A DNA stretch of 64,000 nucleotides from an uncultured Alphaproteobacteria bacterium (GCA_944392815.1 CALXXY010000001.1:64001-128000); one strand, 5' to 3'. Shown: positions 33,837 to 46,197, counted from the first letter of the stretch. Translations and numbers: made by a program. Notes: generated from the letters alone by a model not told the origin.

Positions 33837-34097
33837 TTATTGTATCACTGCGGTTTTTATCAGGGCGACGTCTTCGCGGATTGTGTCGATTTTTATTTGC
33901 AACTGCCCCAGGCCTGTTTCCAATATCGTTGTGCGATTTTCCAACGCTGTCAGGCGGTTGTCCGCGCGGTGCAGTTCATCTATTGATGAATCCTGGCGCG
34001 CGGCCCAATATATTACGCCCGCGATGAATACGATTAAAAACCAACTGTTGCGTAAAAAATCCAACAATCCCATTACACTGTTGGATTGTGATGTCAT
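33837..34097 (-). CDS. Small TM plus coiled-coil protein at end of virion module (holin/XhlA-like)
   Basis: One TM (WFLIVFIAGVIYW) plus heptad tail; coupled to upstream gene. Confidence 0.6.
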   Translation of the reverse strand: MTSQSNSVMGLLDFLRNSWFLIVFIAGVIYWAARQDSSIDELHRADNRLTALENRTTILETGLGQLQIKIDTIREDVALIKTAVIQ

Positions 34098-34291
34098 TAT
34101 TTCCCCCGTTGTATCATGTTTTCAATTTGATGTACCAGTGCACGTTGGGCTTCGATTCCGCGCAGTTCTGCGTCGGTGGCGTTCGGACCCAATGTACGTT
34201 CGATTGTAATTTTGCGCAAATGTTGTAATACCATCGCGCCGGCTGCAGTACTGAAAGTGCGCGCATAATTTTGTTCCAAATCTTTGTTCAT
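34097..34291 (-). CDS. Bbp19-like phage protein downstream of portal
   Basis: TFSTAAGAMVLQHL...AELRGIEAQRALVHQI; position after portal. Confidence 0.7.
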   Translation of the reverse strand: MNKDLEQNYARTFSTAAGAMVLQHLRKITIERTLGPNATDAELRGIEAQRALVHQIENMIQRGK

Positions 34292-35526
34292 AATATATTC
34301 CCCTGGGTCAAAGTTTCTGCCATTGTCATTTTTGTAATCGGTGCGATGTATTTTAATTCTGCGTCGCTGTGCAGTGTGATTTTTTCAATCACGCCACGGC
34401 GCGATAAAATCTGCAGCCCGCGTTCCACCAATGGGTGAATAAACTCGTGCAACAGTCGCCCGTATGTCGCGCCCAGAATTCTGGCCATGTCTGCATTACG
34501 CGCCAGGATTTCTGTGGCGGTCATTTCTTTTTCAGACAGCAATCCCAATCTGTCGGCCAATAATGTGTGACGGATACGATCACGCAAATCAGTCAATATA
34601 ATTTGTGATACATCGAAATTCGCCCCGGACGATAATGGCGTCAGTCCTGATGAACCGACGGCTTTTGGTATGATGGCGCCTGGTGTCAGGTTTATATTAG
34701 ACAAATTTATCACGCCGTCATCGTCGGCCTGCCATATGCCAGACACGGCGATTGTTGCGTTTTTCAAAACCAGTTCCACAACTTTGTTGGCTGTTTTTAT
34801 ATCCGGCAATGCGCGCAGCACTGGGCCACGGCCGTATTGTTCACCACTGGCCACGGACCAGCGAAATATTATGTATGGATTTGTTTCGAATGTGCCGGTT
34901 GCGACAATGTTATTTTCCAATTCGCCGCCGACGTCCAACCATGCTGTAAAATCCGATCCGACCAAACTTTGCACCAGGCGCAACTGTGTTTCTGGGTCTG
35001 ATTTTATTGTATCGCGCAAATTTGATGGTGGCGTCCAATTAGGATATTTTTCCAATACCTGGCGTGCGGACATGGTGGCCGTATGAAATACTGCACCCGG
35101 CAAAATGGCCAGGTCGCGCATAGGAATCGCGGTAAACGAAAACGCAGACGCGGCACCAATCGGATTTTCCGCCATAAACAGGCATGCCGTGCCCAGCACT
35201 ATCAAATCCATATAGCATTGATGGATTGTGGTATAAAAATTAGAATCGTTCAGATTCGCACGCAATGCCGCACAGGCCGCAGTGGCGTCCGGGGAATCCG
35301 CACTTTCGGGCACCAATGATACCCACAGTGATTCTGGTGGCGTCAGCAACGAATAAATAGATGCCGCCAAATTATCGGCTGCGTCCGCGGCGGTGGCATC
35401 GAATACCAATGCTGCGTCGTCATCAGATGTTGGCATTGTATAACGTTGGGCCATGTCCCATCTGTTCAGCCATGGTGTACGCATATCCAATGCGCGACGA
35501 TACATTTGTTGTAAATTTTTTTGCAT
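34288..35526 (-). CDS. Podovirus-type portal / head-tail connector
   Basis: FDATAADAADNLAASI, RWSVASGEQYGRGP, ALPDIKTAN, MTATEI, LGATYGRL. Confidence 0.9.
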   Translation of the reverse strand: MQKNLQQMYRRALDMRTPWLNRWDMAQRYTMPTSDDDAALVFDATAADAADNLAASIYSLLTPPESLWVSLVPESADSPDATAACAALRANLNDSNFYTTIHQCYMDLIVLGTACLFMAENPIGAASAFSFTAIPMRDLAILPGAVFHTATMSARQVLEKYPNWTPPSNLRDTIKSDPETQLRLVQSLVGSDFTAWLDVGGELENNIVATGTFETNPYIIFRWSVASGEQYGRGPVLRALPDIKTANKVVELVLKNATIAVSGIWQADDDGVINLSNINLTPGAIIPKAVGSSGLTPLSSGANFDVSQIILTDLRDRIRHTLLADRLGLLSEKEMTATEILARNADMARILGATYGRLLHEFIHPLVERGLQILSRRGVIEKITLHSDAELKYIAPITKMTMAETLTQGNIL

Positions 35527-35551
35527 GTTTATATACCTTTTGGTTGATGGT

Positions 35552-36400
35552 TTATATTTTGAAATTCGTGTTTGCATTAAAAATTTTTGGGGTGCGCCCA
35601 ATCGGGTGCACTGGCGTTGGAACGGCCGATACAGCGCCCGCGACTGCGTCCAGGCCATCGTCGTGACCAATTGTGCCGCTGGGCGTCCAACCCAGCATTT
35701 CTGCCAATAATGGTGTTGATTGAATACGCGTGTGCGCATGCAGGCGGCCGGACGTTAAAACAGGTTCAATTGCGTCCAGAATTCTGGTTTCTTTTTTCCA
35801 ATGGTTAACCACATTTTGAATCGTTATGGTTATGTTTTTTCGTGCCGACACGTCCCGCATTATTTCCGGCAACGCATTGCCAATGCCGTTTGTTTCTATG
35901 TTTATTCGGCGCATGCCATGGCGCTGCATAAATTCCAGCACCATTTCGCATTGGCGTGCCAGTGGGTGTAATTCGTCGTCTGGCACCAATAAATATACGA
36001 TGTCGTGCACGAATATATGTCGCGTTTTATCATCGCGATATATCAATGCGCATACACTGCCGTCGGAATTTTTACGCCCGGTGGACGGATCCCAATACAT
36101 TGTCGCGCCAGTGATTGTATATTCGCCAATGCGCGCGGTATGCACATTAAAGTCATCGTTGTACATACGCAATGCGTCTGGATCCAATTTCGCCCTGTCG
36201 GGGGCAATAAATTCCAACATCATTTGTGCAGAAAAATATCGCGCCCCGACCGCATTACGCAGTTCGTCTATGCGCGCAGGCGGAAATAATTCCGGCCAGG
36301 CGGGCGTGCCGTCTGGGGAAATTATCGGTATTTTTAATTCACGATATCCCCGCAAAAAAGGCGTTGAAAAACTAAAATTTTTATATACCATATCTGACAT
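35552..36400 (-). CDS. Terminase large subunit, C-terminal nuclease half (start 36400 or 36391)
   Basis: WPELF, FSAQMML, YWDPS, IETNGIG, KETRI, HDDGLDA RNaseH-like motifs. Confidence 0.85.
   Translation of the reverse strand: MSDMVYKNFSFSTPFLRGYRELKIPIISPDGTPAWPELFPPARIDELRNAVGARYFSAQMMLEFIAPDRAKLDPDALRMYNDDFNVHTARIGEYTITGATMYWDPSTGRKNSDGSVCALIYRDDKTRHIFVHDIVYLLVPDDELHPLARQCEMVLEFMQRHGMRRINIETNGIGNALPEIMRDVSARKNITITIQNVVNHWKKETRILDAIEPVLTSGRLHAHTRIQSTPLLAEMLGWTPSGTIGHDDGLDAVAGAVSAVPTPVHPIGRTPKIFNANTNFKI
36360..36368 (+). repeat. 9-bp direct repeat GGCGTTGAA, left copy
   Basis: Identical to 39715-39723; brackets the block interrupting terminase. Confidence 0.5.
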
Positions 36401-37952
36401 GGACTTTACCCCGAAAACATTGCCGAATAATCTGGAGGCCGAACAGGCCGTTCTGGCCGCGGTGTTAATGAACAACCGCGCGTTGGAACGTGTGTCTGAA
36501 TTTCTGCGACCGGAACATTTTTCGCACCCTGCGCACCAGGAAATTTACAAATTGGCCGAACGGCAATTTGCCGCCGGAATACCGTTTGATATCATCACGG
36601 CCAAAAACTATCTGGATCAACAGGGCGTGTTGGAATCTGTGGGTGGCGTGGAATATCTGACGCAATTGGCGTCTGCGGGCGCAACCGTGGTGAACGTCGA
36701 ACAATACGGGCGCATAGTTTATGAAAACGCCATGCGACGCGAATTAATCAACCTGGGGCAATCCATTACCGATGCCGCTTTTGTCGAGGATTTGGATAAT
36801 CCTGTCACTGCACAAATCGAAACGGCCGAACAAAAATTATTTGAAATGGCGTCGACCGGCATTTCTGAACGCGAGGTTGCACCCATATCCACCGCATTAC
36901 AGGACGCATTGAAAGAGGCCGAAATCGCATACAAGGCCGATGGACAACTGTCTGGGTTGACAACTGGGTTGACCGCGTTGGATAAATCCATCAGTGGTCT
37001 GCACCATTCCGATTTGATTATTATTGCCGGTCGTCCCGCAATGGGAAAAACCACGCTGGCGATGAATATCGCGTTTAATGCCGCGAATGCTATTTTATAC
37101 GGTCGCGCCAACGAACGGTACAAAGGCGCCGTGGTGTTTTTCAGTTTGGAAATGTCAAAATCCCAATTGGCGGCGCGTGTGTTATCGTCGCAATCGAAAA
37201 TTCCTGCGTCTGCCATGCGCGAAGGGTCACTGACCGACGAAGATTTCCTGAAAATGTCACAGTATGCCGATGCTATTAGCAAAGTGCCTTTGTACATTGA
37301 TGATACGCCTGGAATGTCTGTGCCGATGTTGCGGACACGCGCGCGTCGTTTGGCACGCAAATGTGGCGGCATTGCGTTAATCGTAATTGACTATTTGCAA
37401 TTGATGACGTCACCCGGTGGCAAAAACAAGGATAATCGTGTCCAGGAATTATCCGAAATCACGCGCGGTCTGAAAATGCTGGCCAAGGAACTGGATGTGC
37501 CTGTTATTGCCCTGTCCCAGTTGTCGCGCAGTGTTGAATCGCGCGATGACAAACGGCCCCAGTTGTCTGATTTGCGTGAATCTGGGTCCATCGAACAGGA
37601 CGCCGACATTGTTATGTTTACATATCGCGAAGAATACTATCTGGAAAATCGCGACCCGTCACAGCGCATTTCCGGCAATGCCAACGAAAAAATTATCGAA
37701 AGTTTCCAAAAACGTTTGGAACGCGCACGTGGCAAAGCCGATGTGATTATCGGGAAAAATCGTCATGGACGGCCTGAAACTGTGCACATGGCATTTTTCG
37801 GCGATTACAGTTTGTTTGACAATCTGGAAGAAACCAATGCCCGCGGCGAAAATGATTTCAATAATCCGACCGAGGGTATGCCTGATGTCGATATGTCTGA
37901 ACAGCCAACGCCGATTGATGCGGACGCCATTCCAGACGATATGCCGCTGTAA
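36399..37952 (+). CDS. dnaB: Replicative DNA helicase
   Basis: PNNLEAEQAVL, AGRPAMGKT, FSLEM, IDYLQL, LSQLSR, DLRESGSIEQDAD, KNRHG. Confidence 0.97.
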   Translation: MDFTPKTLPNNLEAEQAVLAAVLMNNRALERVSEFLRPEHFSHPAHQEIYKLAERQFAAGIPFDIITAKNYLDQQGVLESVGGVEYLTQLASAGATVVNVEQYGRIVYENAMRRELINLGQSITDAAFVEDLDNPVTAQIETAEQKLFEMASTGISEREVAPISTALQDALKEAEIAYKADGQLSGLTTGLTALDKSISGLHHSDLIIIAGRPAMGKTTLAMNIAFNAANAILYGRANERYKGAVVFFSLEMSKSQLAARVLSSQSKIPASAMREGSLTDEDFLKMSQYADAISKVPLYIDDTPGMSVPMLRTRARRLARKCGGIALIVIDYLQLMTSPGGKNKDNRVQELSEITRGLKMLAKELDVPVIALSQLSRSVESRDDKRPQLSDLRESGSIEQDADIVMFTYREEYYLENRDPSQRISGNANEKIIESFQKRLERARGKADVIIGKNRHGRPETVHMAFFGDYSLFDNLEETNARGENDFNNPTEGMPDVDMSEQPTPIDADAIPDDMPL

Positions 37953-38022
37953 ACATTTTATGCTTGCCAAACGCATCTAAATTGACTAAAATTTTTGTCA
38001 AGAAATTCCAAGGAGATTTGCG

Positions 38023-39030
38023 ATGGCCCAAGAAGAAATAATTTTCCCAAATAATATCAGAAATATTCGTTTGGCCAATGGCATGAAAATGACTGAATTG
38101 GCACGCCAGGCAAATTTATCGCTGTCGGCGGTATCCAAAATCGAAAAAGGTGTACGCCGTTTAAATCAAAAACAATTATTGAATATTTGTAATATTTTGG
38201 GTTGCAAATTATCCGATATTTTTATCAAGGAATCTGATGACGTTGCCGGCCAATGGCAAAGCGAAATCAAACGCCGTCTGAATGATAACGAAGACAGTGG
38301 TCTGAAAATTTTTGGCAGCGGGCTGCGCAAAATTCGCCAACAGTCGGGCAAAACTATTGCCCAGGCCGCGGCCGATGCCGGTATGACATTGTCTGTGTAT
38401 CATAAAATCGAGGTCGGCCAGCGCGAAATTTACGAAAACGAAATTGAACCTTTGGCCAAATCGTTTGGATATACTGCTGAATCCATGTTGGATAAAATCG
38501 CGACTTTGTATAAATCTGGCGAATTGAACAAGCAGATTAACAAGGTCAAAGAACGCGTTAAATCCGTATTGGTGCCGGGTAATCCATTGTCTGGAATCGA
38601 TGTGCACAGCAGTTTGTATGGTGCAAAATTATACGACAGCGCACGCAAAAAATTGGTGCCTGTGTTCGGTGCGCCATCGGGCAAAGCAATCGCGTTCAAA
38701 AAATCTGACAAAACAATGATTGTTGCCCCCATGCCGCTGGAGGGTCATTCTGGCATATATGCGATTATCCCGAATTCCAAACGGTTGGGCGGTTTTATCC
38801 CAGAACATGCCTATGTTTTTGCAGACGCCGACACGCCGGCCGCGATTGGTGATTTGGCTGTTTGCATTGATACAGATTTTAATTCGTTGGATTCAAATGA
38901 CACCGCTGTGGCACAAATCGCTGTTGTTCGCACAGATTCGCGGGGCAAAATTTACGGCCAGATTTCTGCGCCCGAAGAAAAAATCGTCGCCCCCACCATG
39001 CACAAGGTTGTCATGATTGTCATGGAATAA
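38023..39030 (+). CDS. Transcriptional regulator with two XRE HTH domains
   Basis: NNIRNIR..ELARQANLSLSAVSKIEKG and LRKIR..AADAGMTLSVYHKIEVG. Confidence 0.85.
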   Translation: MAQEEIIFPNNIRNIRLANGMKMTELARQANLSLSAVSKIEKGVRRLNQKQLLNICNILGCKLSDIFIKESDDVAGQWQSEIKRRLNDNEDSGLKIFGSGLRKIRQQSGKTIAQAAADAGMTLSVYHKIEVGQREIYENEIEPLAKSFGYTAESMLDKIATLYKSGELNKQINKVKERVKSVLVPGNPLSGIDVHSSLYGAKLYDSARKKLVPVFGAPSGKAIAFKKSDKTMIVAPMPLEGHSGIYAIIPNSKRLGGFIPEHAYVFADADTPAAIGDLAVCIDTDFNSLDSNDTAVAQIAVVRTDSRGKIYGQISAPEEKIVAPTMHKVVMIVME

Positions 39031-39057
39031 TTCCATAACCCCAGGGAGAGAGCACAC

Positions 39058-39732
39058 ATGAAAGCCAAAGCCAGCACAGTTGCACAGAAATTGTTAAATC
39101 TGTATCGCCAGGAACATGTTATTTTCGGCGGCTGGGCCGCGGTTAATCGCGTTTTTGTGGACGAAGCCACCGATGACGTAATACATGAATTGCGCAATTT
39201 GCCAACCGGGAAAAATCTGGTGCGGCATATTGAAAATTTACGCAGTGGCAAAACCCCCATGGATTCAATCGAACGCGAATTGTTGCCGTACGATGGATTG
39301 ATGGACGAAACTGTGGCAACGGTGCCTTTGACGGCCGCAGAATGGGCGGAATTGGAATCCGGTATTGATGCGTTCACAACCGACCAAAATGGACTGGACG
39401 AAATTCAACAATTAAATGTTGTAAAAAAATTCGGCGACCAATGGTTGGTGGCTATACGTGCTGCATTAAATGCCCGGCCTGATTTGTTGGAAAAATGGTC
39501 GGTTATCAACAAAACATATCGCGCGTATTATTTGTGGAAAGTGGCCAGTGATATGTTAACCCAGCCGCTGTCTGAACGTGCGCGCGCGCAATTACAGGCC
39601 GACATGCCCGAATACGAAACGTATTTGCCAATGTTTGGTGATGCCGGCAATGAATTGTTGGAAAAACTGCGTTCGTTTATTTCCACAACAATCCCCGATG
39701 AAACGAACGACGATGGCGTTGAATCCATTTAA
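39058..39732 (+). CDS. Hypothetical protein
   Basis: 224-aa ORF with GGGAGAG RBS; stop overlaps terminase N-half stop. Confidence 0.75.
   Translation: MKAKASTVAQKLLNLYRQEHVIFGGWAAVNRVFVDEATDDVIHELRNLPTGKNLVRHIENLRSGKTPMDSIERELLPYDGLMDETVATVPLTAAEWAELESGIDAFTTDQNGLDEIQQLNVVKKFGDQWLVAIRAALNARPDLLEKWSVINKTYRAYYLWKVASDMLTQPLSERARAQLQADMPEYETYLPMFGDAGNELLEKLRSFISTTIPDETNDDGVESI
39715..39723 (+). repeat. 9-bp direct repeat GGCGTTGAA, right copy
   Basis: Identical to 36360-36368. Confidence 0.5.
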
Positions 39733-40331
39733 TCGTCTGTTGTTCTGTAAATAGTATCCAATGTGTGCGGTGTGCCGATATAAATCATTGTACCGGTCGG
39801 CGACAAAATAAAATCCAATTCGCGCAGACGTTCACGCAATGTTTCCCGTTTTTGCGATGTGTTGCTGGTGTTGGGAACCTCGACATCGTCACATATAATC
39901 AAATCCGATCGCAGACCAGTAATGTTGCCGTGAATGCCCTGGCATATGACAGACGGTTCACGAATGCCAACCGGGCGATTTACGGTTATACGGCCACTGG
40001 CCCATTCTTTTTTTACGTCCGGGATTAAATCGGCACACATTGGGTGATTTTCCAATATGTGCCGAATATGCGACACCATACGTGACGCCAGGCCGTTTTC
40101 CGCAGACAGGATTAAAATCCTGGTGCTGGGGCGCATATGCAACACACATGCTGCAAAAATGCCAACAACTGTGGATTTGCCAGAATGCCTGAACGCCATC
40201 AGCAATCCACGATGCGGTGCGTCATTTAACACCGACACCAAAAATTCCATGATTTTTTTGTGGTGCGCCGGTGTGGTTAATCCCAAAACTTGGTTCCATG
40301 CGTCCAGGAAATTATAAAATTCGGCCAGCAT
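39729..40331 (-). CDS. Terminase large subunit, N-terminal ATPase half
   Basis: Walker A AFRHSGKST, ITGLRSD, Walker B LIICDDVE, coupling motif YIGTPH. Confidence 0.88.
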   Translation of the reverse strand: MLAEFYNFLDAWNQVLGLTTPAHHKKIMEFLVSVLNDAPHRGLLMAFRHSGKSTVVGIFAACVLHMRPSTRILILSAENGLASRMVSHIRHILENHPMCADLIPDVKKEWASGRITVNRPVGIREPSVICQGIHGNITGLRSDLIICDDVEVPNTSNTSQKRETLRERLRELDFILSPTGTMIYIGTPHTLDTIYRTTDD

Positions 40332-40336
40332 ATAAT

Positions 40337-40684
40337 TTAACCCAACAAATCGTCAAATTTATCCAATACCATTTGCAACAAATTTGGACGTGTGGCCCGA
40401 ATTTGTTTTAATTTTTCTGTGTTTGATTTACGTTTTTCGTCGTACGGTTTGGCGGTTTCTGATTTCAATCGCGCCAATACTGCACTGGTACTCATACTGC
40501 GGCCAGACGCCCCTGACGCACCGTATTTGGCACGTTGGGTTGCCAGTGTTTTTTTGACCAGATTCGTTTTTTCACGTGCGTCGGACGCCATGTCCGCCAA
40601 TATTTTTTGACGTTCATTTTCGGCCTGTTTTTTGGAATCGTTATATCCCAATACGGTCGTGACATCTGATACCAATTGTCCCAT
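40337..40684 (-). CDS. Putative internal virion/ejection protein (T7 gp14-like position)
   Basis: LATQRAKYGASG motif, small helical protein after tail tube B. Confidence 0.6.
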   Translation of the reverse strand: MGQLVSDVTTVLGYNDSKKQAENERQKILADMASDAREKTNLVKKTLATQRAKYGASGASGRSMSTSAVLARLKSETAKPYDEKRKSNTEKLKQIRATRPNLLQMVLDKFDDLLG

Positions 40685-40705: not shown

Positions 40706-42421
40706 TTATATTGTGTAATTTCCGTATACGCCAACAGACAAAATCGTTGTTGGCAACTGTTCGTTGCTGGATATTGTCCACGGCGCAGTTATGCAATTTT
40801 GCTGGGTTCCCAGTATATTGACTGATACGTCACCACTGTATCCAGGGGCGGCGGCGTCATATATATTATCTGGGAACGGGGCACGCATGCCGTTTATGAA
40901 CAAAGTTTTTGTATCCAGCGTACGCGCCACTATTTTTCTGATACGCAATTTACGCGCGTTATGGCCAGATGCCCGCACAGGCAACGCTGATGCTGTATAT
41001 GAAAAATCATATTGCGACGCATCAGATAATGCTGTATCGGAAAAAGTTTCCAAATAACACGTGTCGCCACGCGCAACAACCACGTATGTTTTGCCCGCTA
41101 TGGTGGCCACTGATTTAAATGTGCCGTCGGTTTTATATCGCGCCCATGCAGAAATGCCCAGCGCGGAATTTTGATTCAGTACCGCCATATTGCCGTCTGT
41201 CATTACAACAAACAATTGACGCGTGTTTTCGTTATACGATATGTCCGTGGGCGTGTTCATTAAATGTTTTGCCTGGGTACATAAATCACGCGCATTGTAA
41301 TTTTCACCCAATGCGTCCAGCGTTAATTCGCGAATGTCCTGTTCGGTGGCGGAAATAAATACTGTGGCACCTTCGATTTTTTGCGGCGGCAAATAACGCG
41401 TGGCAACGCTGCCGACTGATGTGTGTTGTTTGATTTCAATTGACGATGGGGTCAAAGGTTTGCTGGATATCGCCCATTCGCCTGAATTAGTCAAAATTTG
41501 CAAATTGTCACTGCTGACCAATGTGCAGATTTGTTGGCGCTGTTGCGATAATAATGTGACGAAAATAGATTCGTCGTCCAGGCCCGTGCCAACATTAAAA
41601 TTATTATACTGGCCCACCCGCGACGCCCATATACCACTGGGCCACGATGGGGTTCCGCCGAAAATCAATCTGTCTTGGTGATATGTGACACTGCACGGCC
41701 AACCGCGACGGTCGCTGAATGCGGATTCGTACCAATCTGTGACGGGGTCGGACGGCAAATTATATTGCGAATTTGTATACGCGTATACTACAGTCGGACT
41801 GACGTATTCCGTGATTCGCCACTGATTATTTAACAACAACAGGTACCCACCAACAGAATTTTGTGTCCAAAACGCTTTGTTGGTGGTAAATGTTGCCGTG
41901 TTATTGCCCGCGCTGTTTGCGGTCACGGTAATATTAATGGTCGCTGCGTCATCGAATTTCATGAATGGCATGTTTAATGTCATATCTGAATCATTGCGTT
42001 TGAATTCGAACGGAACCAATTCGAAATTCACAGATCCCATTTGTAAAATACAGGGCTGATATTTTGGGTGAACGAATATCATCGTGCCATTTCGCTGGGC
42101 ATATTGAATTTTCGGATAATCATCAAAATCCCATTCGAATAATAAATCACATATAACCGTTGCACCGTCGTATATCAACATATGCCCATCAGTCAATGCC
42201 AATATATAATTTTCTGTTTCACTGACTGAAAATGGTATCAGGCGCGCAGACGATGTTAATGTGTCAACTGTGGCCAAACCGCGGCGCCGGCGCAGTCCAC
42301 CACCAGCGATAACGTCCATATTTTCCAAATACGACAATCCGTTTAAATTATCGCGTGCGTAAAATTCCGGGGAAACTTCGCCGTCTGCGAACGAGTTTTG
42401 GGTTTTAATAAAATCTGTCAT
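40706..42421 (-). CDS. Tail tubular protein B / nozzle (podovirus-type)
   Basis: QNSFADGEVSP, GGLRRRRG, RLIPFS, GWPCSVTYHQDRLIFGG. Confidence 0.8.
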   Translation of the reverse strand: MTDFIKTQNSFADGEVSPEFYARDNLNGLSYLENMDVIAGGGLRRRRGLATVDTLTSSARLIPFSVSETENYILALTDGHMLIYDGATVICDLLFEWDFDDYPKIQYAQRNGTMIFVHPKYQPCILQMGSVNFELVPFEFKRNDSDMTLNMPFMKFDDAATINITVTANSAGNNTATFTTNKAFWTQNSVGGYLLLLNNQWRITEYVSPTVVYAYTNSQYNLPSDPVTDWYESAFSDRRGWPCSVTYHQDRLIFGGTPSWPSGIWASRVGQYNNFNVGTGLDDESIFVTLLSQQRQQICTLVSSDNLQILTNSGEWAISSKPLTPSSIEIKQHTSVGSVATRYLPPQKIEGATVFISATEQDIRELTLDALGENYNARDLCTQAKHLMNTPTDISYNENTRQLFVVMTDGNMAVLNQNSALGISAWARYKTDGTFKSVATIAGKTYVVVARGDTCYLETFSDTALSDASQYDFSYTASALPVRASGHNARKLRIRKIVARTLDTKTLFINGMRAPFPDNIYDAAAPGYSGDVSVNILGTQQNCITAPWTISSNEQLPTTILSVGVYGNYTI

Positions 42422-42436
42422 GTTGTACCCCCGATA

Positions 42437-42958
42437 TTAAAATCGAACGTTTATCAGTGAAAAATTTTCTATATTTTCATGGGCGGCCGACGATGCGCTG
42501 TCTATGAATTTCGCAGATTGTAATTCTGTTTCATACAAAGCCGCCAGCATGCGAAACACGTTTTGGTCGCCTGTTAAAGGAATGCAAAATTCCATTGCCA
42601 ATTTTGTTGCCGCCAAAGACGTAAAATATCCCGGAAATTTATCCGGCGCGACGCGGACTGTGGCGTTTATAGTAATATTTTCCGATGGCGATATTATTTC
42701 GTTGCCGATAATTTCACCACTGCATTTTAATATGCGCAAACATTCCGCCGGAATTATAAAATTTCCATCGCTGTTTTTGTTCAGTTTGAATTTTCGTGTG
42801 GCAAATCGCCATGGGTGCATGGCCAGCAATGTATCCACCACAGAATCATACAAAGTGCGCGACAATTGCGCAGCCGGTGTATCGTCTGTTAATGACTGGA
42901 TCGGCCGTTCCCCCAATTTCAGCAATGCCAAAGAACACAAATCTATTTTCGTTTGCAT
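42437..42958 (-). CDS. Tail tubular protein A / adaptor
   Basis: IDLCSLALLKLGERPIQSL, LLAMHPWRFA, PAECLR. Confidence 0.8.
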   Translation of the reverse strand: MQTKIDLCSLALLKLGERPIQSLTDDTPAAQLSRTLYDSVVDTLLAMHPWRFATRKFKLNKNSDGNFIIPAECLRILKCSGEIIGNEIISPSENITINATVRVAPDKFPGYFTSLAATKLAMEFCIPLTGDQNVFRMLAALYETELQSAKFIDSASSAAHENIENFSLINVRF

Positions 42959-42981
42959 AAATTCCCCCATAGGTCACAAAT

Positions 42982-43016
42982 AAAAATCCGGGGCAACAAC
43001 CTGCCCCGGTATAAAA
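42982..43016 (-). terminator. Intrinsic terminator after capsid and small capsid-associated gene
   Basis: ccggggca/tgccccgg hairpin followed by T-run on minus strand. Confidence 0.65.
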
Positions 43017-43019
43017 AAG

Positions 43020-43247
43020 TTATGACAATGCGCCAACCGTGATACTGTCACCAACTGTGACTGTTTTAATAGACGTTGCGTCCGACGCGTTTATGATAAC
43101 CATATCGCCCGTATTCATCAATGTTTTCACATCATCAAAATATCCAGACGCGCCGATTGTCGCCATCGTTTCGGCTGCGGCATAATGCCACAATGTAAAT
43201 CCGTTTGCATACGCAATTACGGACAGATTTTTATTTTGAAACGCCAT
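43020..43247 (-). CDS. Small conserved capsid-associated protein
   Basis: NLSVIAYANGFTLWHY...GYF..GD; directly after capsid; AAGGA RBS. Confidence 0.7.
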   Translation of the reverse strand: MAFQNKNLSVIAYANGFTLWHYAAAETMATIGASGYFDDVKTLMNTGDMVIINASDATSIKTVTVGDSITVGALS

Positions 43248-43279
43248 TGATTTTTTCCTTTGTATTTATTGGTTGTTAA

Positions 43280-44098
43280 TTAATCTTTGCATTTGATACG
43301 AACGATACCAGTGTCGTCAATCATGACTGCGCCCTGGGACATGCTGTTGCTGATGAAATGAGCCGCCCGTTCGCCGTGCCATGAAATATCTGTTTTTACT
43401 TCCTGGCCACAGGCATGACCGATGCTGGTTGCGTGATACATGAAACAGTCACGCTTGGACGTGTCCGACAACGGTAAATCGTTGTACAGAACCCATGTTA
43501 TGCCCAACCACTGTTTGGACGCCCCGCCAGATATCAATGGCAGATTGTCGCCCACGTAATCGCCGGATACAAATTCATCTATCCCCAGCAATTCATTCCA
43601 TTGGTGCACGCCAATGACTGCAAATCTGCGGCCATCATCGGGAACATCGTTTTCATTTAACACTTCCAATGCGGACAAAATTAAATCTTTGGTCAGACCG
43701 GTTGAATAATCGCCCACAGATGTTGTGGCGGACGACATTGCGCCAACAATCAATTCGTCTGTTTTGCGCCCCAGTGCATACGCACCAGCAGACGCAACAA
43801 CACGACGTTCGTCAATGTTGGTTTTTAATTCGTCCAATGCGTCAACCCAATCACCCGCATAATAGTCCTGCAAAATACATTCCACAGGTTCGTGATTCAA
43901 ATTCATCACAGGCACAATACCGTGACGCGATTTTGTGCTGGCGGTGCCACGACCAACCTTTTGGAAAGTGGTGGACGCACCGACAACCCCAGATTTGCTG
44001 CGTACCGTGGCACGCAGTTTTGTGCCCATTTGCTGATATGCCAAATGGACGTCGGCTTCGAACTGTTTGACAAAGACCTGATCAACTGAAACAGACAT
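43280..44098 (-). CDS. Major capsid protein
   Basis: FVKQFEADVHLAYQQMGTKLR, DWVDALDELK, AYALGRKTDELI, NDVPDDGR, GAVMID. Confidence 0.87.
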   Translation of the reverse strand: MSVSVDQVFVKQFEADVHLAYQQMGTKLRATVRSKSGVVGASTTFQKVGRGTASTKSRHGIVPVMNLNHEPVECILQDYYAGDWVDALDELKTNIDERRVVASAGAYALGRKTDELIVGAMSSATTSVGDYSTGLTKDLILSALEVLNENDVPDDGRRFAVIGVHQWNELLGIDEFVSGDYVGDNLPLISGGASKQWLGITWVLYNDLPLSDTSKRDCFMYHATSIGHACGQEVKTDISWHGERAAHFISNSMSQGAVMIDDTGIVRIKCKD

Positions 44099-44295
44099 TA
44101 TTAATTTCCTTTTGCTGTAAAAAATAAAAAAAGACGTAATAAAAAATTACGTCGGTAAATTTTATGATTATGGTTGTGCACATAAACATATGCGCCATAT
44201 ACATAAAACAAATTGGGTCCGTTATCGGATTGTCCAAAAAAATATTCAATCAGACGAAATAAAATCTGATTGAATATTTTATGCGGGGGCAATTA

Positions 44296-44320
44296 AAAAT
44301 CCCCGGAATTCCGGGGATTA
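44296..44320 (-). terminator. Hairpin terminator after histone-like gene
   Basis: aatccccgg-aatt-ccggggatt with T-run on minus strand. Confidence 0.65.
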
Positions 44321-44322
44321 TA

Positions 44323-44676
44323 TTATTTTTTCTTTGCACATGCTTTTTTTACCGGTTTTTTCGCAACAACTTTTTTTGCGACCGGTTTTTTCGCTGCTAC
44401 TTTTTTAACAGCAACTTTTTTTGCAGGTGCTTTTTTAGCAACAACTTTTTTTGCAACTGGTTTTTTCACCGCTGCTTTTTTAGCAACTGGTTTTTTCGCT
44501 GCAACTGGTTTTTTAACTGCTACTTTTTTAGCAACAGGTTTTTTTGCAACAACTTTTTTTGCTGCTGGTTTTTTGGCAAGTGCTTTTTTAGCAACTGGTT
44601 TCTTTGCAACCGGTTTGGCAGCCGGCTTTTTCGCGGCGGCTTTCTTTGCGGCTGGTTTCAAGAATGTGAATGCCAT
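44323..44676 (-). CDS. Histone H1-like Lys/Ala/Val/Pro-rich DNA-binding protein (Hc2-like)
   Basis: ~20 [10 protein letters not shown] pentapeptide repeats; AAGGAG RBS before MAFTFLK. Confidence 0.85.
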
Positions 44677-44780
44677 TCTTCTCTCCTTTTTATTTTTTGG
44701 ATAGAACAAATTTCTTTTGTTCTTACTTTTATTTTATATGAAAGAAAAAAAATAGTAAAGAAGAAAGTGCATTTTTTTCA

Positions 44781-45437
44781 TCACGAATATAATTTTTTAA
44801 ATCCATTTTCAATTTTGCGAACGTATTCTGGATCCATATCGCGCCAATATTTTGGATCGCGCATCATGCGACGCAGTTCATCATCTGTTAAATTTTTTTG
44901 TGGCGCATCATTGGTTTCAATCGATGGTTCCATCGTTTGCATCATCGCGTAAATGCTGCGGATTCCCTGGGGTGTAGCGCACAGAGTTTCAAACGCATCA
45001 CGTGGTAAATATTTTTCGCCGAACGAATTTATTGCATTTAATGCGTCACACATTTTTTGTTCATCGCCGAAAAAATTTTTTAATTCACTGATTGCATTTG
45101 TTTCATTTTGCACATCAAATAATTCTGATAACACAGGTGTTAAAAATTCTTCTGCGATACGATAAATTTGTTCAACCTGGGACGAAGTTAATCCAATTTC
45201 AAAAAATTTTTCGCGCAACGATTCGTCATCAAACAATTCATTTGTCGGATATTCAGACGAATCATTTGGCACACCAATTGCACGATTAAATTTGGCACGT
45301 GTGTCTGCATCGCTGTCTGCGTTTGGCACAGAAACCATCGTTCCGATTTTCTTTTCCAATTCAGAATATGATTTTAATAATGCGGCTGTGTTTAATGTAC
45401 CGTCTTTATTCAGAAATTTTTCTGGAATGTTTTCCAT
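44781..45437 (-). CDS. Capsid assembly/scaffolding protein
   Basis: IPEKF..LLKSYSELEKK, C-terminal MMRDPKYWRD..F.KLY; upstream of capsid. Confidence 0.78.
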   Translation of the reverse strand: MENIPEKFLNKDGTLNTAALLKSYSELEKKIGTMVSVPNADSDADTRAKFNRAIGVPNDSSEYPTNELFDDESLREKFFEIGLTSSQVEQIYRIAEEFLTPVLSELFDVQNETNAISELKNFFGDEQKMCDALNAINSFGEKYLPRDAFETLCATPQGIRSIYAMMQTMEPSIETNDAPQKNLTDDELRRMMRDPKYWRDMDPEYVRKIENGFKKLYS

Positions 45438-45627
45438 TTGTGTTCCTTTTGTTTTCGCTGGATTTACGCAGAAAATAAATTCCGCCCAATGTAAATATTG
45501 ATTGCAGCATTGTGAATATATCTGTATCACCAACCAAATACGCGCCCAGTGCTGATAATATTCCAATGCTTGATATTATGTATGTTCTGTGTCCGGATAA
45601 AAATCCGCCACTGATAATTTTTTTCAT
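45406..45627 (-). CDS. Holin-like small membrane protein
   Basis: GHRTYI + two TM segments + basic tail; next to hydrolase. Confidence 0.6.
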   Translation of the reverse strand: MKKIISGGFLSGHRTYIISSIGILSALGAYLVGDTDIFTMLQSIFTLGGIYFLRKSSENKRNTNGKHSRKISE

Positions 45628-45644
45628 AACCTGTCCATTTTGTA

Positions 45645-46055
45645 TTACAGATAAAACAACAATCCATCTATGTCGGCGATATACCCACGCGCAGTCGCCC
45701 AATCTGGTATCAATCCATCATGGTGAAAACGCGTCGCGCCATTGCAACAATCCGGCAACAGGCCATGCAACATTCTGCGTGCCACGCGCACACACATTTG
45801 AAATCCGGAATCTGTCGACGTCACAGACAATAATTCATTATCCGGTGATGCAGGATTTAACACTGGGAATAAATCTGCGTCCAATGCGACGTCCACAACA
45901 CATCTGTGCGTGGCCACCGCGGAATTATAAATCATGGACGTTAACGCTTCGACCACACGCAATGATACAGCGTGTGTTTCTGCATATACTGTACGCGCAA
46001 TTTTATACGCCACAGATTGCAATTCATCTGTGTTTTTAATTAATGTCAATTGCAT
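45645..46055 (-). CDS. SleB/Hydrolase_2-like cell wall hydrolase (divergent)
   Basis: IARTVYAE, GATRFH, PDWA, LLFY motifs. Confidence 0.7.
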   Translation of the reverse strand: MQLTLIKNTDELQSVAYKIARTVYAETHAVSLRVVEALTSMIYNSAVATHRCVVDVALDADLFPVLNPASPDNELLSVTSTDSGFQMCVRVARRMLHGLLPDCCNGATRFHHDGLIPDWATARGYIADIDGLLFYL

Positions 46056-46168
46056 GTGCTGAATGCCCCTGTGATTGTTGAAATAAAAAATGGGCCGCAA
46101 CAAAGTGCGACCCAAAATAAAAATCCGCCGGTTTCCCGCGGACATACTTTTACCTGTTCATGCGTTCT

Positions 46169-46197
46169 ATAGTATCATATTTGAACACAAAAGTCAA
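46169..46197 (-). promoter_or_regulatory. Sigma70-like promoter at head of virion module
   Basis: TTGACT-17bp-TACTAT on minus strand. Confidence 0.55.

What the first reader, a model, noticed from the sequence alone, without database searches (positions are those of the whole stretch)
33837..46197. Domesticated podovirus-like virion module: candidate new gene transfer agent
Seen: co-oriented minus-strand genes for a SleB-like hydrolase, holin-like protein, scaffold, major capsid, small capsid protein, tail tube A and B, internal protein, terminase, portal and Bbp19-like protein. All have open frames, with a head promoter and a post-capsid terminator. No integrase, att sites, phage polymerase/primase or tail fibre is present in the window. 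The module lies between recG and birA, is interleaved with host dnaB, and looks host-like in composition. Established: RcGTA-type elements are siphovirus-like virion-only clusters kept under selection. Inference: this is a vertically inherited, non-excisable, short-tailed GTA-like particle system distinct from RcGTA. I recall similar capsid and small-protein sequences in Rhodospirillales chromosomes.
Basis: partly seen in the sequence, partly recalled or inferred. Interest (0 to 1): 0.92.

Follow-up and report, generated by a model that had tools for sequence, protein, structure and literature searches.

The report
Domesticated short-tailed phage particle genes
A tiny-genome chicken-gut bacterium has inherited, with its chromosome, the head, stubby-tail, DNA-packaging and lysis genes of a T7-shaped phage and kept them under selection, so it probably makes its own virus-like DNA-carrying particles, though none has yet been seen.

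Summary
Window 33837-46055 carries hydrolase, holin-like, scaffold, capsid, decoration stub, adaptor, nozzle, gp14-like, terminase, portal and Bbp19-like genes, all open. The cell's only dnaB is interleaved.

New or corrected points:
- The large terminase is two genes. It is split in 20 of 20 loci from six families of the order. It is one frame in 33 of 38 relatives outside the order.
- The post-capsid terminator is conserved in 72 of 81 loci. The proposed "head promoter" is not supported.
- A tail-fibre gene and a spanin gene lie on other contigs.

Evidence for domestication:
- The capsid gene is in 38 of 41 genomes of order Rs-D84 (Candidatus Enterousia and kin).
- Gene order is fixed in 60 of 60 Enterousia loci.
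- dN/dS is 0.24 or lower, and the capsid is as constrained as dnaB.
- The module tree shares 15 of 18 splits with the rpoB tree.
- Composition is host-like. No recombinase and no att repeats lie nearby.

Elsewhere in Alphaproteobacteria the same capsid family behaves like a mobile prophage.

Verdict: a domesticated podophage particle system, most likely GTA-like. Particles, cargo and transfer are untested. I found no paper describing it. This scan reported the same cluster before in at least eight other genomes.

The parts
45645..46055 (-). Cell-wall hydrolase (SleB/CwlJ-type, endolysin-like). The probable start is ATG 46055. The longer ORF reaching 46145 would run through the birA terminator.
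   Evidence: PF07486 Hydrolase_2 in 8 of 11 homologues, best E 3.7e-9; window copy itself has no Pfam hit. phrog_938 endolysin, E 1.7e-4. Start choice.
45406..45627 (-). Holin-like 73-aa membrane protein. It has hydrophobic segments and a basic C-terminus. It sits between the hydrolase and the scaffold gene and overlaps the scaffold start by 32 nt.
   Evidence: ORF. tblastn hit in 68 of 81 Enterousia-type loci and 15 of 21 order loci; hydropathy profile. The function is inferred from size, topology and position only.
44781..45437 (-). Scaffold (T7 gp9-type capsid assembly protein), 218 aa from ATG 45437.
   Evidence: PF05396, E 5.1e-11. phrog_3742. Start with RBS. Median pN 0.200 and dN/dS 0.19.
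44323..44676 (-). Lys/Ala/Pro-rich histone-H1-like protein of 117 aa, built of 15-nt repeats. It may be a module component or a host nucleoid protein lodged in the module.
   Evidence: PF07382 HC2, E 6e-18, on the longer 128-aa ORF 44323-44709, below the curated cut-off (66.1 vs 40... score 66.1 bits). Found in the same position in 10 of 10 genus loci and 5 of 5 loci of family f3, but in none of the 6 loci of f2, f4, f5 and f6. Only ORF of this composition in the genome. 15-nt repeat family. In-frame 18-nt and 12-nt indels between strains.
43280..44098 (-). Major capsid protein (HK97 fold, LME-1/BPP-1-type family PF19821).
   Evidence: PF19821, E 6.6e-71. PDB 9eg4_A (LME-1 capsid protein), E 7.5e-25. 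Single copy in the genome. dN/dS 0.025-0.044 against the four closest species.
43020..43247 (-). Small capsid protein of 75 aa. [quoted passage not shown]
   Evidence: phrog_18004, E 5.6e-14. 9eg4_H residues 31-88, E 0.005. LME-1 paper passages.
42988..43009 (-). Intrinsic terminator after the capsid genes: 9-bp stem with 7 G-C pairs, followed by a T-run.
   Evidence: A hairpin of <= -8 kcal/mol plus T-run occurs in this gap in 72 of 81 loci, with different stem sequences. Control gaps: 1 of 81, 1 of 78, 0 of 78, 0 of 67.
42437..42970 (-). Tail adaptor (T7 gp11 type, 'tube A').
   Evidence: phrog_394, E 8.8e-33. PDB 8ck1_E, E 3e-6, and 9efk_T, E 2e-4.
40706..42421 (-). Tail nozzle (T7 gp12 type, 'tube B'), 571 aa.
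   Evidence: phrog_376, E 8.6e-86. PDB 8ck1_A 'tail nozzle', E 1.4e-29, and 9efk_M.
40337..40684 (-). 115-aa protein, a possible short gp14-like internal virion protein.
   Evidence: PF24072 T7_gp14 in 7 of 11 homologues at E<=5, best 0.0016; window copy 0.059, below the cut-off. Atlas lead at rank 16, score 0.90. The evidence is weak.
39729..40331 (-). terN: N-terminal piece of the large terminase, carrying the ATPase core with Walker A, Walker B and the GTPH motif. It is a separate 200-aa gene.
   Evidence: phrog_38 positions 271-460, E 2.1e-40. T7 gp19 residues 21-215 (4bij_A, 8dgc_E). G51/K52/S53, D148/D149/E151 and G186-H189 are invariant in 12 sequences from 6 families. It is its own frame in 20 of 20 loci.
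39058..39732 (+). 224-aa host gene of unknown function. It is paired with the HTH gene across the order and is not a phage gene.
   Evidence: No family found. It follows the HTH gene in 7 of 11 other-family genomes, away from the module.
38023..39030 (+). Host regulator with two XRE-type HTH domains, 335 aa.
   Evidence: PF01381 x2. Present in 11 of 11 other-family genomes, not beside the module. Median pN 0.139.
36399..37952 (+). dnaB, the cell's only replicative helicase gene. It lies between the two terminase pieces.
   Evidence: PF03796 and PF00772. Only DnaB_C match in the genome. Single copy at 41-55% identity in 11 of 11 other-family genomes, elsewhere in the chromosome. Start at ATG 36399.
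35552..36400 (-). terC: C-terminal piece of the large terminase, carrying the rest of the ATPase fold plus the RNase-H-like nuclease. Its ATG (36400-36398) overlaps the dnaB ATG by 2 nt within CATG.
   Evidence: phrog_38 positions 466-707, E 2.8e-38. A profile hits T7-type TerL 8dgc_E residues 410-527, E 0.004. WDPS (D104), ETNGIG (E169) and DDGLDA (D247, D248, D251) are invariant in 12 sequences. Start-codon overlap in 44 of 74 loci.
34288..35526 (-). Portal (T7 gp8 type), 412 aa from ATG 35526.
   Evidence: PF12236, E 1.1e-78. 9efk_A, E 8.7e-16. Median pN 0.137 and dN/dS 0.06.
34097..34291 (-). Bbp19-like small phage protein.
   Evidence: PF25181, E 2.6e-10. Present in 58 of 60 loci.
33837..34097 (-). 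86-aa protein with one N-terminal membrane segment and a coiled C-terminus. It is the last gene of the module and its role is unknown (perhaps lysis-related).
   Evidence: phrog_736, E 7e-4. Hydropathy profile. Atlas gives no named family. Present in 58 of 60 loci.
46091..46114 (-). birA terminator, which marks the upstream edge of the module.
   Evidence: A hairpin plus T-run occurs in the birA-to-hydrolase gap in 68 of 68 loci.

Best explanation
The stretch is a phage-derived particle module that the bacterial lineage owns.

Origin (shown or supported by comparison): an ancestor of the order Rs-D84 captured the head, short-tail, packaging and lysis genes of a temperate T7/LME-1-type podophage. 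It lost integration, replication, the large ejection proteins and most of the fibre. The module has since passed down with the chromosome under purifying selection, to the point that host genes (dnaB, a regulator pair, perhaps an H1-like protein) are lodged inside it.

How it most likely works (inferred):
1. In some cells the scaffold, capsid and decoration stub are made in excess. The conserved terminator behind them keeps tail and packaging genes at a lower level.
2. Portal, adaptor and nozzle build a stubby tail. A fibre encoded elsewhere attaches through its T7-type N-domain.
3. The two terminase pieces associate into one ATPase-nuclease and fill heads with chromosomal DNA.
4. Holin-like protein, SleB-type hydrolase and a distant spanin pair lyse the producer cell.
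5. The particles deliver DNA to sister cells, probably only as far as the periplasm, since gp15/gp16-type ejection proteins are missing. The retained ComEC, ComM and DprA would then take it in.

This would be a gene-transfer-agent-like viriform of independent, podoviral origin.
For: Gene identities.

Fixation:
- Capsid gene in 38 of 41 order genomes and 24 of 24 in the genus, nearly always one copy.
- At least 537 matching stretches among species-representative genomes. The best 80 are all Enterousia or uncultured alphaproteobacterial gut MAGs.
- All 60 evaluable loci of those 80 share the arrangement birA-hydrolase-scaffold-capsid-...-terN | p224-HTH-dnaB | terC-portal.

Selection:
- Against the four closest species every module gene has dN/dS <= 0.24. 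Capsid is 0.025-0.044 and dnaB 0.029-0.034.
- Median pN among 10 genus loci: capsid 0.100, portal 0.137, dnaB 0.174, birA 0.235.
- Catalytic motifs of both terminase pieces are invariant across 6 families.

Vertical descent: the module tree shares 15 of 18 splits with the rpoB tree. Shuffled labels reach at most 3 in 2000 trials.

Not mobile:
- Nearest recombinase gene is about 75 kb away.
- No att repeats.
- Host-like composition, while an island control sits at the 96th percentile.

Contrast outside the order:
- One-frame TerL in 33 of 38 loci.
- 676-aa fibre.
- Flanks not shared in 8 of 10 same-family pairs; the other two are a same-genus pair with shared flanks and a pair with two flank ORFs matching at shifted positions.

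Two-piece terminase:
- Predicted complex ipSAE 0.90, 0.89, 0.90; best of 3 controls 0.00.
- The mark was reached by 58 of 80 solved complexes and 2 of 110 mismatched pairs.
- Runs agree in >= 98% of contacts, and partner pLDDT is 79-81.
- terC residues 11-26 lie against the Walker-A strand of terN.
- This may pass from likeness to solved one-chain terminases, so it shows likeness, not binding.

Accessory parts elsewhere:
- Fibre with PF03906 N-domain on contig 7.
- Spanin phrog_1275 on contig 4.
- ComEC, DprA and ComM are present.

Conserved post-capsid terminator: 72 of 81 loci.
Against: - No particle, cargo or transfer has been observed. The RNA library laid gave only short, low-depth contigs on module and host genes alike.
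- T7-type terminases normally cut at specific sites, and no small terminase was found, so random packaging is assumed, not shown.
- The closest solved capsid (LME-1) is T=7. A head of that size would hold the whole 12-kb module, unlike RcGTA.
- gp15/gp16-type ejection proteins are absent, and the fibre is short: 336 aa here and about 185 aa in 37 of 60 relatives.
- The module was not found in 3 of 41 order genomes (completeness 92%, 80%, 63%), which also lack a portal match. One genome has an in-frame TAA in the capsid gene. It is therefore dispensable in some lineages.
- Topology tests are not clean. The module data disfavour the rpoB topology (AU p = 0.043), and the rpoB data reject the module topology (p = 2e-5). 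The discordance is confined to three genomes inside the genus.
- ComEC, DprA and ComM also pass the cut-off in 8-10 of 14 control genomes, so they add little.
- The same genome holds a serine-recombinase island with an intact terminase.
Confidence: 0.55

Rival explanations
1. The module is domesticated but serves something other than gene exchange among kin. These bacteria lack most biosynthesis and may live on other cells. The particles could therefore be a delivery or attack device aimed at partner or competitor cells. They could instead act as a decoy or packaging trap against infecting podophages, or as a programmed-lysis and DNA-release device.
For: All the evidence for fixation and selection applies equally. 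The fibre receptor domain is modular and has several paralogues per genome in relatives, which suggests changing targets. Ejection proteins are missing. The Rs-D84 paper infers a partner-dependent lifestyle (passages).
Against: The ATPase and nuclease motifs of the terminase and the portal are conserved, which points to DNA-filled heads and away from an empty or protein-delivery particle. No toxin or effector gene lies in the module. Nothing tested here links it to defence; I did not scan the module against PADLOC.
Confidence: 0.25
2. The particles mainly serve mobile islands. Serine-recombinase islands that bring their own intact terminase (with a ParB-methylase and a small phrog_26239 protein) would use the resident head and tail genes to spread, in the way satellites use helper phages.
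For: An island at G000:C1 about 169.6-188.7 kb carries a 489-aa TerL of the same PHROG family (E 5.4e-89). It also has a 124-aa upstream gene, a ParB-methyltransferase and a 529-aa serine integrase.
Against: The island TerL is patchy, in 8 of 41 genomes and only in the genus, whereas the module is in 38 of 41. The resident terminase pieces keep their own catalytic motifs under selection. The island TerL is only about 25% identical to terN and terC, so its fit to this portal is unknown.
Confidence: 0.1
3. It is still a virus-like mobile element: a prophage or capsid-forming satellite whose integration and replication genes lie elsewhere, or which uses a helper.
For: Related clusters outside the order look like prophages: about 18-kb proviruses, one-piece TerL, variable flanks. 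IMG/VR lists Enterousia-type contigs as viral.
Against: The locus and gene order are the same in 60 of 60 Enterousia species loci. The essential dnaB sits inside it. The module tree largely tracks rpoB. There is no recombinase within about 75 kb and no att repeats. Composition is host-like.
Confidence: 0.05
4. It is a decaying prophage remnant without function.
For: The terminase gene is in two pieces. The fibre and ejection genes are reduced or lost. One relative has a stop in the capsid gene.
Against: No internal stops in the six genes rechecked (portal, scaffold, hydrolase, terC, capsid, dnaB) in 10 genus loci. Among 60 further loci only a few stops appear inside best matches (portal 5, terN 1). 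Two such stops seen in other loci lay in the alignment overhang at a neighbouring or own terminal stop (L034 portal; L017 terN); the six were not inspected. dN/dS is 0.03-0.24 while synonymous sites are saturated. The split terminase has persisted through the divergence of six families with invariant catalytic residues.
Confidence: 0.03

Closest known systems
Legionella phage LME-1 (PDB 9EG4 capsid, 9EFK portal-tail; Sci Adv 2025, PMC12407071, passages read)
   Same: Capsid, head-decoration base, portal, adaptor and nozzle are sequence-homologous (E 7.5e-25, 0.005, 8.7e-16, 2e-4 and 2.9e-9). The order capsid-decoration-adaptor-nozzle matches the ORF numbering of the PDB chains (orf16, orf17, orf18); the position of the LME-1 capsid gene in that order was not checked. 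Both have T7-like short-tail architecture.
   Different: LME-1 is an infectious temperate phage with terminase, internal virion proteins and long fibres. Here the decoration protein is a 75-aa stub and the fibre is short and encoded elsewhere. TerL is two genes. No integration or replication genes are present, and the module is fixed in the chromosome.
RcGTA-type gene transfer agents of Alphaproteobacteria (Rhodogtaviriformidae; PMC9662315, passages read)
   Same: Both are structural-plus-packaging clusters inherited with the host and evolving slowly. Accessory genes (fibre, lysis) are scattered elsewhere in the genome. The recipient competence genes are present.
   Different: The origin is unrelated. 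RcGTA is siphovirus-like with a small T=3 oblate head holding about 4 kb (passage). This module is T7-type, its nearest solved capsid is T=7, and its terminase is split. No CtrA box lies in the module. Function has been shown for RcGTA but not here.
FpGTA of Faecalibacterium prausnitzii (Nat Commun 2026, PMC12946183, passages read)
   Same: It is a gut-bacterial GTA-like element, probably podovirus-like, encoded at more than one locus.
   Different: FpGTA is in Firmicutes, and its DNA packaging was shown by long reads of particle DNA. [quoted passage not shown] Homology to the present genes was not tested here.
BaGTA of Bartonella (Bartogtaviriformidae; PMC9662315, passages read)
   Same: It is alphaproteobacterial, with particles reported as tailless or short-tailed. 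Its genes sit beside a replication-linked feature and it co-evolves with its hosts.
   Different: BaGTA sequences were not at hand, so homology is untested. Indirectly, the Sulfitobacter phages that nest in the BaGTA TerL clade are not among the eight organism first-words (Vibrio, Pelagibacter and six others) that account for all 123 phage records matching this capsid. BaGTA relies on run-off replication, and nothing of that kind was seen here.
T7 gp19 large terminase (PDB 4BIJ, 8DGC)
   Same: terN aligns with residues 21-215 and keeps Walker A, Walker B and the coupling motif. A terC profile aligns with residues 410-527.
   Different: It is one polypeptide in T7 and in 33 of 38 relatives outside the order. 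Here it is two genes throughout the order. The cut lies inside the ATPase fold, not at the domain linker.
Pelagibacter phage EXVC031P Hodr and Vibrio podophages (INPHARED records)
   Same: These are the closest cultured-phage capsids: 43% and 32% identity over the full length.
   Different: They are free 31-34-kb phages. Cellular copies in other Alphaproteobacteria (58-64% identity) are closer to Enterousia than any phage on record.

Membership tests
Gene transfer agent / viriform (general definition) | Phage-derived structural genes resident in the host chromosome, inherited vertically and kept by selection | tested here: met
   Capsid gene in 38 of 41 genomes. 60 of 60 loci syntenic. 15 of 18 tree splits shared with rpoB. 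dN/dS <= 0.24.
Gene transfer agent / viriform (general definition) | No means of its own for excision or replication | tested here: met
   No recombinase match in the window; the nearest is about 75 kb away. No att-like repeats. The only replication gene is the host's single dnaB.
Gene transfer agent / viriform (general definition) | Particles are produced and released | not testable with these tools
   Only contigs of one RNA library could be laid. They show neither level nor strand.
Gene transfer agent / viriform (general definition) | Heads are filled with more or less random host DNA rather than the element's own genome | not testable with these tools
   No particle-DNA run was offered. 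No small terminase or pac site was identified.
Gene transfer agent / viriform (general definition) | A particle cannot carry all genes needed to make it | tested here: inconclusive
   The nearest solved capsid is T=7, which would hold the 12-kb module. However, the fibre (contig 7) and spanin (contig 4) genes are dispersed. The head size is unknown.
Gene transfer agent / viriform (general definition) | DNA is delivered to and recombined in recipient cells | not testable with these tools
   ComEC, DprA and ComM are present but also common in controls.
RcGTA-type (Rhodogtaviriformidae) | Homology to the RcGTA head-tail cluster (siphovirus tail, HK97-type genes g1-g15) | tested here: not met
   All hits are to T7-type families (PF12236, PF19821, PF05396, phrog_394, phrog_376, phrog_38). 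No tail-tube or tape-measure genes are present.
BaGTA-type (Bartogtaviriformidae) | Homology of TerL and capsid to BaGTA | not tested
There is only an indirect hint against it.
T7/LME-1-type podophage (a virus or prophage) | T7-type portal, scaffold, capsid, adaptor, nozzle and TerL | tested here: met
T7/LME-1-type podophage (a virus or prophage) | Complete genome with replication or integration genes, ejection proteins, a full fibre and a one-piece terminase | tested here: not met
   None of these is in the module. TerL is split in 20 of 20 order loci.
Phage satellites (PICI, capsid-forming PICI, PLE) | Integrase, att sites, own replication and helper dependence; patchy distribution | tested here: not met
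   No integrase or att sites. Presence is near-universal and the site is fixed.

The most novel reading that the evidence does not exclude
Rs-D84 bacteria run a previously unknown class of gene transfer agent built from a T7-type podophage.
- Its packaging motor has worked as two separate polypeptides since before the six families diverged.
- Its large, LME-1-like heads would move tens of kilobases (several percent of a 0.9-Mb chromosome) per particle.
- In Enterousia the second terminase gene and the portal operon start back-to-back with the cell's only dnaB, with start codons sharing CATG. Particle production would then be wired by transcriptional interference to the replication state of the cell.
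- The system would be the main route of recombination that lets these sub-megabase genomes escape mutational decay.
- Accessory serine-recombinase islands with their own terminase would ride in the same particles.
Probability: 0.15. Interest if true: 0.92.

Novelty: new variant of a known kind. Interest (0 to 1): 0.78.

Why it matters
Only a handful of independent phage domestications into gene transfer agents are known. Those formally classified are siphovirus-like or poorly defined in shape. The first podovirus-like one (FpGTA, Firmicutes) was published in January 2026.

A T7-type system fixed across a whole order of uncultured, sub-megabase gut Alphaproteobacteria would add a further independent origin. 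It would also raise three questions:
- Why do extremely reduced genomes spend more than 1% of their DNA on particle genes?
- How does a terminase work when it is split inside the ATPase fold? I found no paper describing such a terminase.
- How far can host and ex-phage genes become interlocked, given that the only replicative helicase gene lies between the two halves and shares its start-codon bases with one of them?

The contrast with mobile, one-piece-terminase relatives elsewhere in the class gives a natural before-and-after series for studying domestication.

Tried and rejected
RNA and virome evidence: the look-up of sequencing runs offered chicken-gut DNA runs, four 'METAGENOMIC RNA-Seq' runs that behave like DNA, and one metatranscriptome (X20, share 0.15). 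It offered no particle-fraction library. Laying X20, X15, X16 and X1 on window 31000-50000 gave only short, low-depth X20 contigs on portal, terC/dnaB, HTH, nozzle, adaptor/p75 and also recG. These are contigs, so they carry no strand, level or ends, and DNA carry-over is possible. No verdict on expression.

CtrA control: TTAA-N7-TTAA occurs 3 times in the window against 3.07 expected, and never in the module.

Head promoter: sigma-70-like hits are not enriched.

terC alone against the PDB: no hit. Only the profile reached T7-type TerL, at E 0.004.

p86 and p115 in the protein Atlas: only unnamed clusters near the top.

p166 alone in Pfam: nothing.

I found no reverse transcriptase among the ORFs scanned there and dropped it. 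I did not search the genome for RVT_1.

One ancient class-wide GTA: considered after PF19821 turned up in 111 of 401 class genomes. I rejected it because same-family pairs outside the order mostly do not share flanks: 8 of 10 share none, one same-genus pair does, and one pair shares two flank ORFs at shifted positions. Their capsids are also often less alike than each is to Enterousia, and TerL and fibre are intact.

dnaB as a phage helicase: rejected. It is the only DnaB_C match in this genome and has one full-length copy in each of 11 other-family genomes, away from the module, except that G032's is split across two contigs.

Technical failures:
- First tree run with IQ-TREE bootstrap timed out. 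FastTree was used instead.
- One search used too strict a flank rule (0 evaluable loci) and was redone.
- The portal and scaffold values were artefacts of wrong starts and were redone.

Literature:
- 'Enterousia': 16 papers.
- 'Rs-D84': 12 papers.
- 'gene transfer agent' + 'podovirus': 62 papers, 15 listed.
- 'gene transfer agent' + 'T7-like': 19 papers, 12 listed.
- 'split terminase': 0 papers.
- 'large terminase' + 'split' + 'two separate genes': 1 paper, irrelevant by its listing.
None describes this cluster, judged by title, abstract or the passages read. The Rs-D84 genome paper has 0 occurrences of phage, capsid or gene transfer. Supplements were not seen. LME-1 table S3 and BaGTA table S5 could bear on gene correspondences.

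Full report
WHAT IS THERE. The window is G000:C1:64001-128000 of a 927,230-bp, 18-contig genome that is 96.8% complete. Capsid relatives in named records place it in Candidatus Enterousia, order Rs-D84; the closest is Ca. Enterousia intestinigallinarum at 92%. Sequencing runs holding the stretch are chicken-gut metagenomes.

The minus strand between recG (31715-33769) and birA (46209-46889) carries the following genes, read from the birA side:
- a SleB/CwlJ-type hydrolase
- a 73-aa holin-like ORF
- a T7 gp9-type scaffold
- a Lys/Ala-rich H1-like ORF
- a PF19821 capsid
- a 75-aa small capsid protein
- an adaptor
- a nozzle
- a 115-aa weakly gp14-like protein
- the N-terminal piece of a T7-type large terminase
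- then three plus-strand genes: a 224-aa ORF, a 2xHTH regulator and dnaB
- the C-terminal terminase piece
- a portal
- a Bbp19-like protein
- an 86-aa membrane protein

Solved-structure matches tie capsid, small capsid protein, portal, adaptor and nozzle to Legionella phage LME-1 (9EG4, 9EFK). Adaptor and nozzle also match phage Carin-1 (8CK1). LME-1 is a T=7 podophage with a T7-like tail (passages).

THE TERMINASE IS IN TWO PIECES, AND THE SPLIT IS OLD. terN matches phrog_38 positions 271-460 and T7 gp19 residues 21-215, and keeps Walker A, Walker B and GTPH. terC matches positions 466-707 and keeps the nuclease motifs WDPS, ETNGIG and DDGLDA. In 20 of 20 loci from six families of the order, terN ends in its own frame of 203-240 aa and is never in one frame with terC. 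This holds even in the five loci where the two are adjacent. dnaB lies between them only in the window's genus: 10 of 10 loci including the window, and 60 of 60 further species loci. In family f3 the portal lies between them.

Outside the order the picture differs. 33 of 38 loci with both parts have them in one open frame; in 4 the hits overlap and in 1 they are far apart. One such gene gives a single phrog_38 match over positions 273-709. The gene was therefore cut in the ancestor of Rs-D84, and the pieces were later moved apart. The reading 'dnaB inserted into a terminase gene' is not quite right.

The cut lies inside the ATPase fold. In the predicted complex, terC residues 11-26 pair with the Walker-A strand (terN 41-50) and with terN 184-199. 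The score was ipSAE 0.90, 0.89 and 0.90, with the best of 3 controls at 0.00. The mark was reached by 58 of 80 solved complexes and 2 of 110 mismatched pairs. Contacts agree in at least 98% across runs, and partner pLDDT is 79-81. Because one-chain terminases have been solved, this pass may reflect likeness only.

FINE ANATOMY.
- The dnaB ATG (36399-36401) and the terC ATG (36400-36398, minus strand) share two bases within CATG.
- The same overlap occurs in 44 of 74 loci. In the other 30 the extrapolated terC start codon is not ATG, and the two 5' ends lie within 31 nt.
- There is thus no intergenic room. Each promoter must lie in the other gene, or terC-portal is reached by read-through antisense to dnaB.
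- A GC-rich hairpin with a T-run follows the small capsid gene. It recurs with different stem sequences in 72 of 81 loci, against 1 of 81, 1 of 78, 0 of 78 and 0 of 67 in four other short gaps of the module. This is the layout that in T7 sets capsid excess over tail proteins (recalled).
- A terminator also follows birA in 68 of 68 loci. Such sites are no more frequent than in shuffles: 41 against 35 +/- 5.4.

DOMESTICATION.
- Presence: the capsid gene is in 38 of 41 genomes sampled from the order, 24 of 24 in the genus, and nearly always once. The three without it (92%, 80% and 63% complete) also lack a portal match.
- Selection: synonymous sites are saturated even against the closest species (dS > 1), yet dN/dS is 0.025-0.044 for the capsid, 0.037-0.065 for the portal, 0.05-0.13 for the terminase pieces and at most 0.24 for any module gene. 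dnaB gives 0.029-0.034. Among 10 genus loci the capsid has the lowest pN of the neighbourhood, at 0.100.
- Descent: a tree of capsid + adaptor + nozzle + terN + scaffold for 21 genomes shares 15 of 18 splits with the rpoB tree, including all inter-family relationships. Shuffled labels share at most 3 in 2000 trials. When only genus labels are shuffled, the observed 15 exceeds the maximum of 14.
- Against a perfect match: the module data disfavour the rpoB topology (AU p = 0.043, 1000 replicates), and the rpoB data reject the module topology (p = 2e-5). The conflict concerns three genomes inside the genus.
- Immobility: none of the 4 tyrosine-recombinase or 6 serine-recombinase matches in the genome lies in the window. 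No att-like repeats flank the module.
- Composition: module GC of 0.451 is at the 27th percentile and its tetranucleotide distance at the 45th percentile of 256 windows of the genome's own DNA. A known island scores at the 96th percentile.
- Host genes inside: dnaB is the only DnaB_C match in the genome. It has one full-length copy (41-55% identity) elsewhere in the chromosome in each of 11 other-family genomes, G032's being split across two contigs. The HTH gene is in 11 of 11 of those genomes, followed by the 224-aa gene in 7, also away from the module.

WHAT WAS LOST AND WHAT LIES ELSEWHERE. No small terminase, no gp15/gp16-type ejection proteins and no polymerase were found among the module ORFs.

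The genome has one fibre gene, 336 aa with a T7 fibre N-domain (PF03906, 26-30 bits against a cut-off of 25.2). It lies on contig 7 between der and a beta-propeller lipoprotein gene that I take to be BamB-like by eye; no family search was run on it. In 37 of 60 related loci a fibre stub of about 185 aa sits between the gp14-like gene and terN. The window and 22 others lack it there. The C-terminal domain of the fibre has paralogues, in several genomes right behind the last module gene. ComEC, DprA and ComM are retained, but they also pass the cut-off in 8-10 of 14 control genomes.

The K/A/P-rich ORF between scaffold and capsid is the only ORF of that composition in the genome. It holds the same position in 10 of 10 genus loci and 5 of 5 f3 loci, but in none of the six loci of the other four families. 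It varies by in-frame repeat indels between strains. Whether it is a packaged DNA-binding protein or a host nucleoid gene lodged there is open.

RELATIVES OUTSIDE THE ORDER. The capsid family is in 111 of 401 evenly drawn genomes of the class, in 90 of 294 genera. It also appears in many IMG/VR proviruses of about 18 kb from high-GC genomes, at 58-64% identity. That is closer than any phage on record: Pelagibacter phage Hodr reaches 43% and Vibrio podophages 32%, among 123 matching records out of 50,697.

Those copies carry portal-Bbp19-scaffold ... capsid-decoration-adaptor-nozzle ... a 676-aa fibre, a one-piece TerL and a hydrolase. In ten same-family pairs, flanks are shared only in the one same-genus pair, apart from two flank ORFs that match at shifted positions in one further pair (L257/L258). 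Capsid identity within pairs (25-88%) is often below each member's identity to Enterousia. I read them as a widespread temperate podophage lineage of Alphaproteobacteria, from which the Rs-D84 module descends, and not as one ancient GTA.

MECHANISM AND RIVALS. That this is a host-owned, selected, phage-derived module I take as shown. That it makes DNA-filled particles follows from the joint conservation of scaffold, capsid, portal and both catalytic halves of the terminase. That the cargo is host DNA and is passed to other cells is inference by analogy with GTAs.

Points against a simple GTA reading:
- T7-type terminases are usually site-specific.
- No small terminase was found.
- A T=7 head would hold the whole module.
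- The module was lost in some lineages.
- No expression or particle data exist.

Rival readings are another domesticated use (delivery or attack, decoy, lysis), service to terminase-bearing islands, residual mobility, and decay. They are weighed in their own sections.

An 18.8-kb serine-recombinase island about 42 kb beyond the window carries an intact TerL of the same PHROG family, with a ParB-methylase and a small upstream gene. This TerL is only about 25% identical to terN and terC and is patchy, in 8 of 41 genomes. It therefore does not make the module self-mobile, but it might exploit the particles.

NOVELTY. I found no description in print; the searches are listed under Tried and rejected. 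The main genome paper on Rs-D84 does not mention phage, capsid or gene transfer. FpGTA (Firmicutes) is presented as the first podovirus-like GTA-like element.

This scan has reported the same cluster before in at least eight other genomes, with the same reading. Those notes gave me the leads to the name Enterousia, to LME-1 and to the spanin pair, and I checked each of them here.

I cannot tell whether earlier agents saw the following, but they are established here:
- the terminase split is order-wide and pre-dates the dnaB arrangement
- relatives outside the order have a one-frame terminase
- the dnaB and terC start codons overlap
- the post-capsid terminator is conserved, with controls
- the fibre gene has relocated in this genome
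- the capsid family behaves like a prophage elsewhere in the class

Noticed in passing
G000:C1:169642-188671 (about 42 kb beyond the window end); TerL at C1:178957-180423; locus L062: A serine-recombinase island carries an intact 489-aa terminase of the same PHROG family as the split one. It also holds a ParB-methyltransferase and a 124-aa phrog_26239 gene just upstream. The TerL is patchy, in 8 of 41 relatives at 31-65% identity. The island might ride in the resident particles.
   Followed up: partly
window 4420-5243 (-) and 11691-12424 (+): Two inverted, duplicated pairs of small Cys-rich secreted proteins flank rne, a membrane protein gene and rph. No reverse transcriptase was seen among the ORFs scanned there.
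   Followed up: partly
window 36364-36401: A promoter-like site (TTGAAA, 16 nt, TACCAT) ends 7 nt before the dnaB ATG, and no Shine-Dalgarno sequence precedes that ATG. dnaB may therefore be translated from a leaderless mRNA.
   Followed up: no
window 44781-45437 (scaffold gene): Synonymous divergence of the scaffold gene (dS 0.56-0.88) is well below that of its neighbours (1.2-2.5) against the same four species. Possible causes are codon-usage selection in a highly expressed gene or an overlapping constraint.
   Followed up: no
window 44332-44646: The K/A-rich ORF is built of 15-nt repeats. It differs between strains by in-frame 18-nt and 12-nt indels.
   Followed up: partly
G000:C7:22107-23114 (L059 1495-2505) and relatives: The C-terminal domain of the fibre (residues 200-305) recurs in 2-4 separate small ORFs per genome in many relatives, often just downstream of the last module gene. 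This suggests swappable receptor-binding modules.
   Followed up: partly
class-wide; loci L194-L268: PF19821 capsids with the same gene order occur in 111 of 401 evenly drawn Alphaproteobacteria genomes, and as proviruses of about 18 kb in high-GC isolates. A conserved protein of about 508 aa with no family precedes the portal there.
   Followed up: partly
G032:C30:23390-24187; G030:C23:21959-23392; G227:C9:47420-48283: Single in-frame stops appear in a capsid gene (TAA), a dnaB gene (TAA) and another capsid gene (TGA) of three MAGs. These could be sequencing errors, pseudogenes or recoding; this was not examined.
   Followed up: no
window 20000-27000 and 58000-64000: Two low-GC stretches (0.35-0.40, against about 0.45-0.50 around them) were not examined.
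   Followed up: no
L102 (CAVGNU010000006.1): A record titled Bacteroides fragilis carries an Enterousia-type module with a capsid 88% identical. It is probably a mis-binned or mislabelled contig.
   Followed up: no
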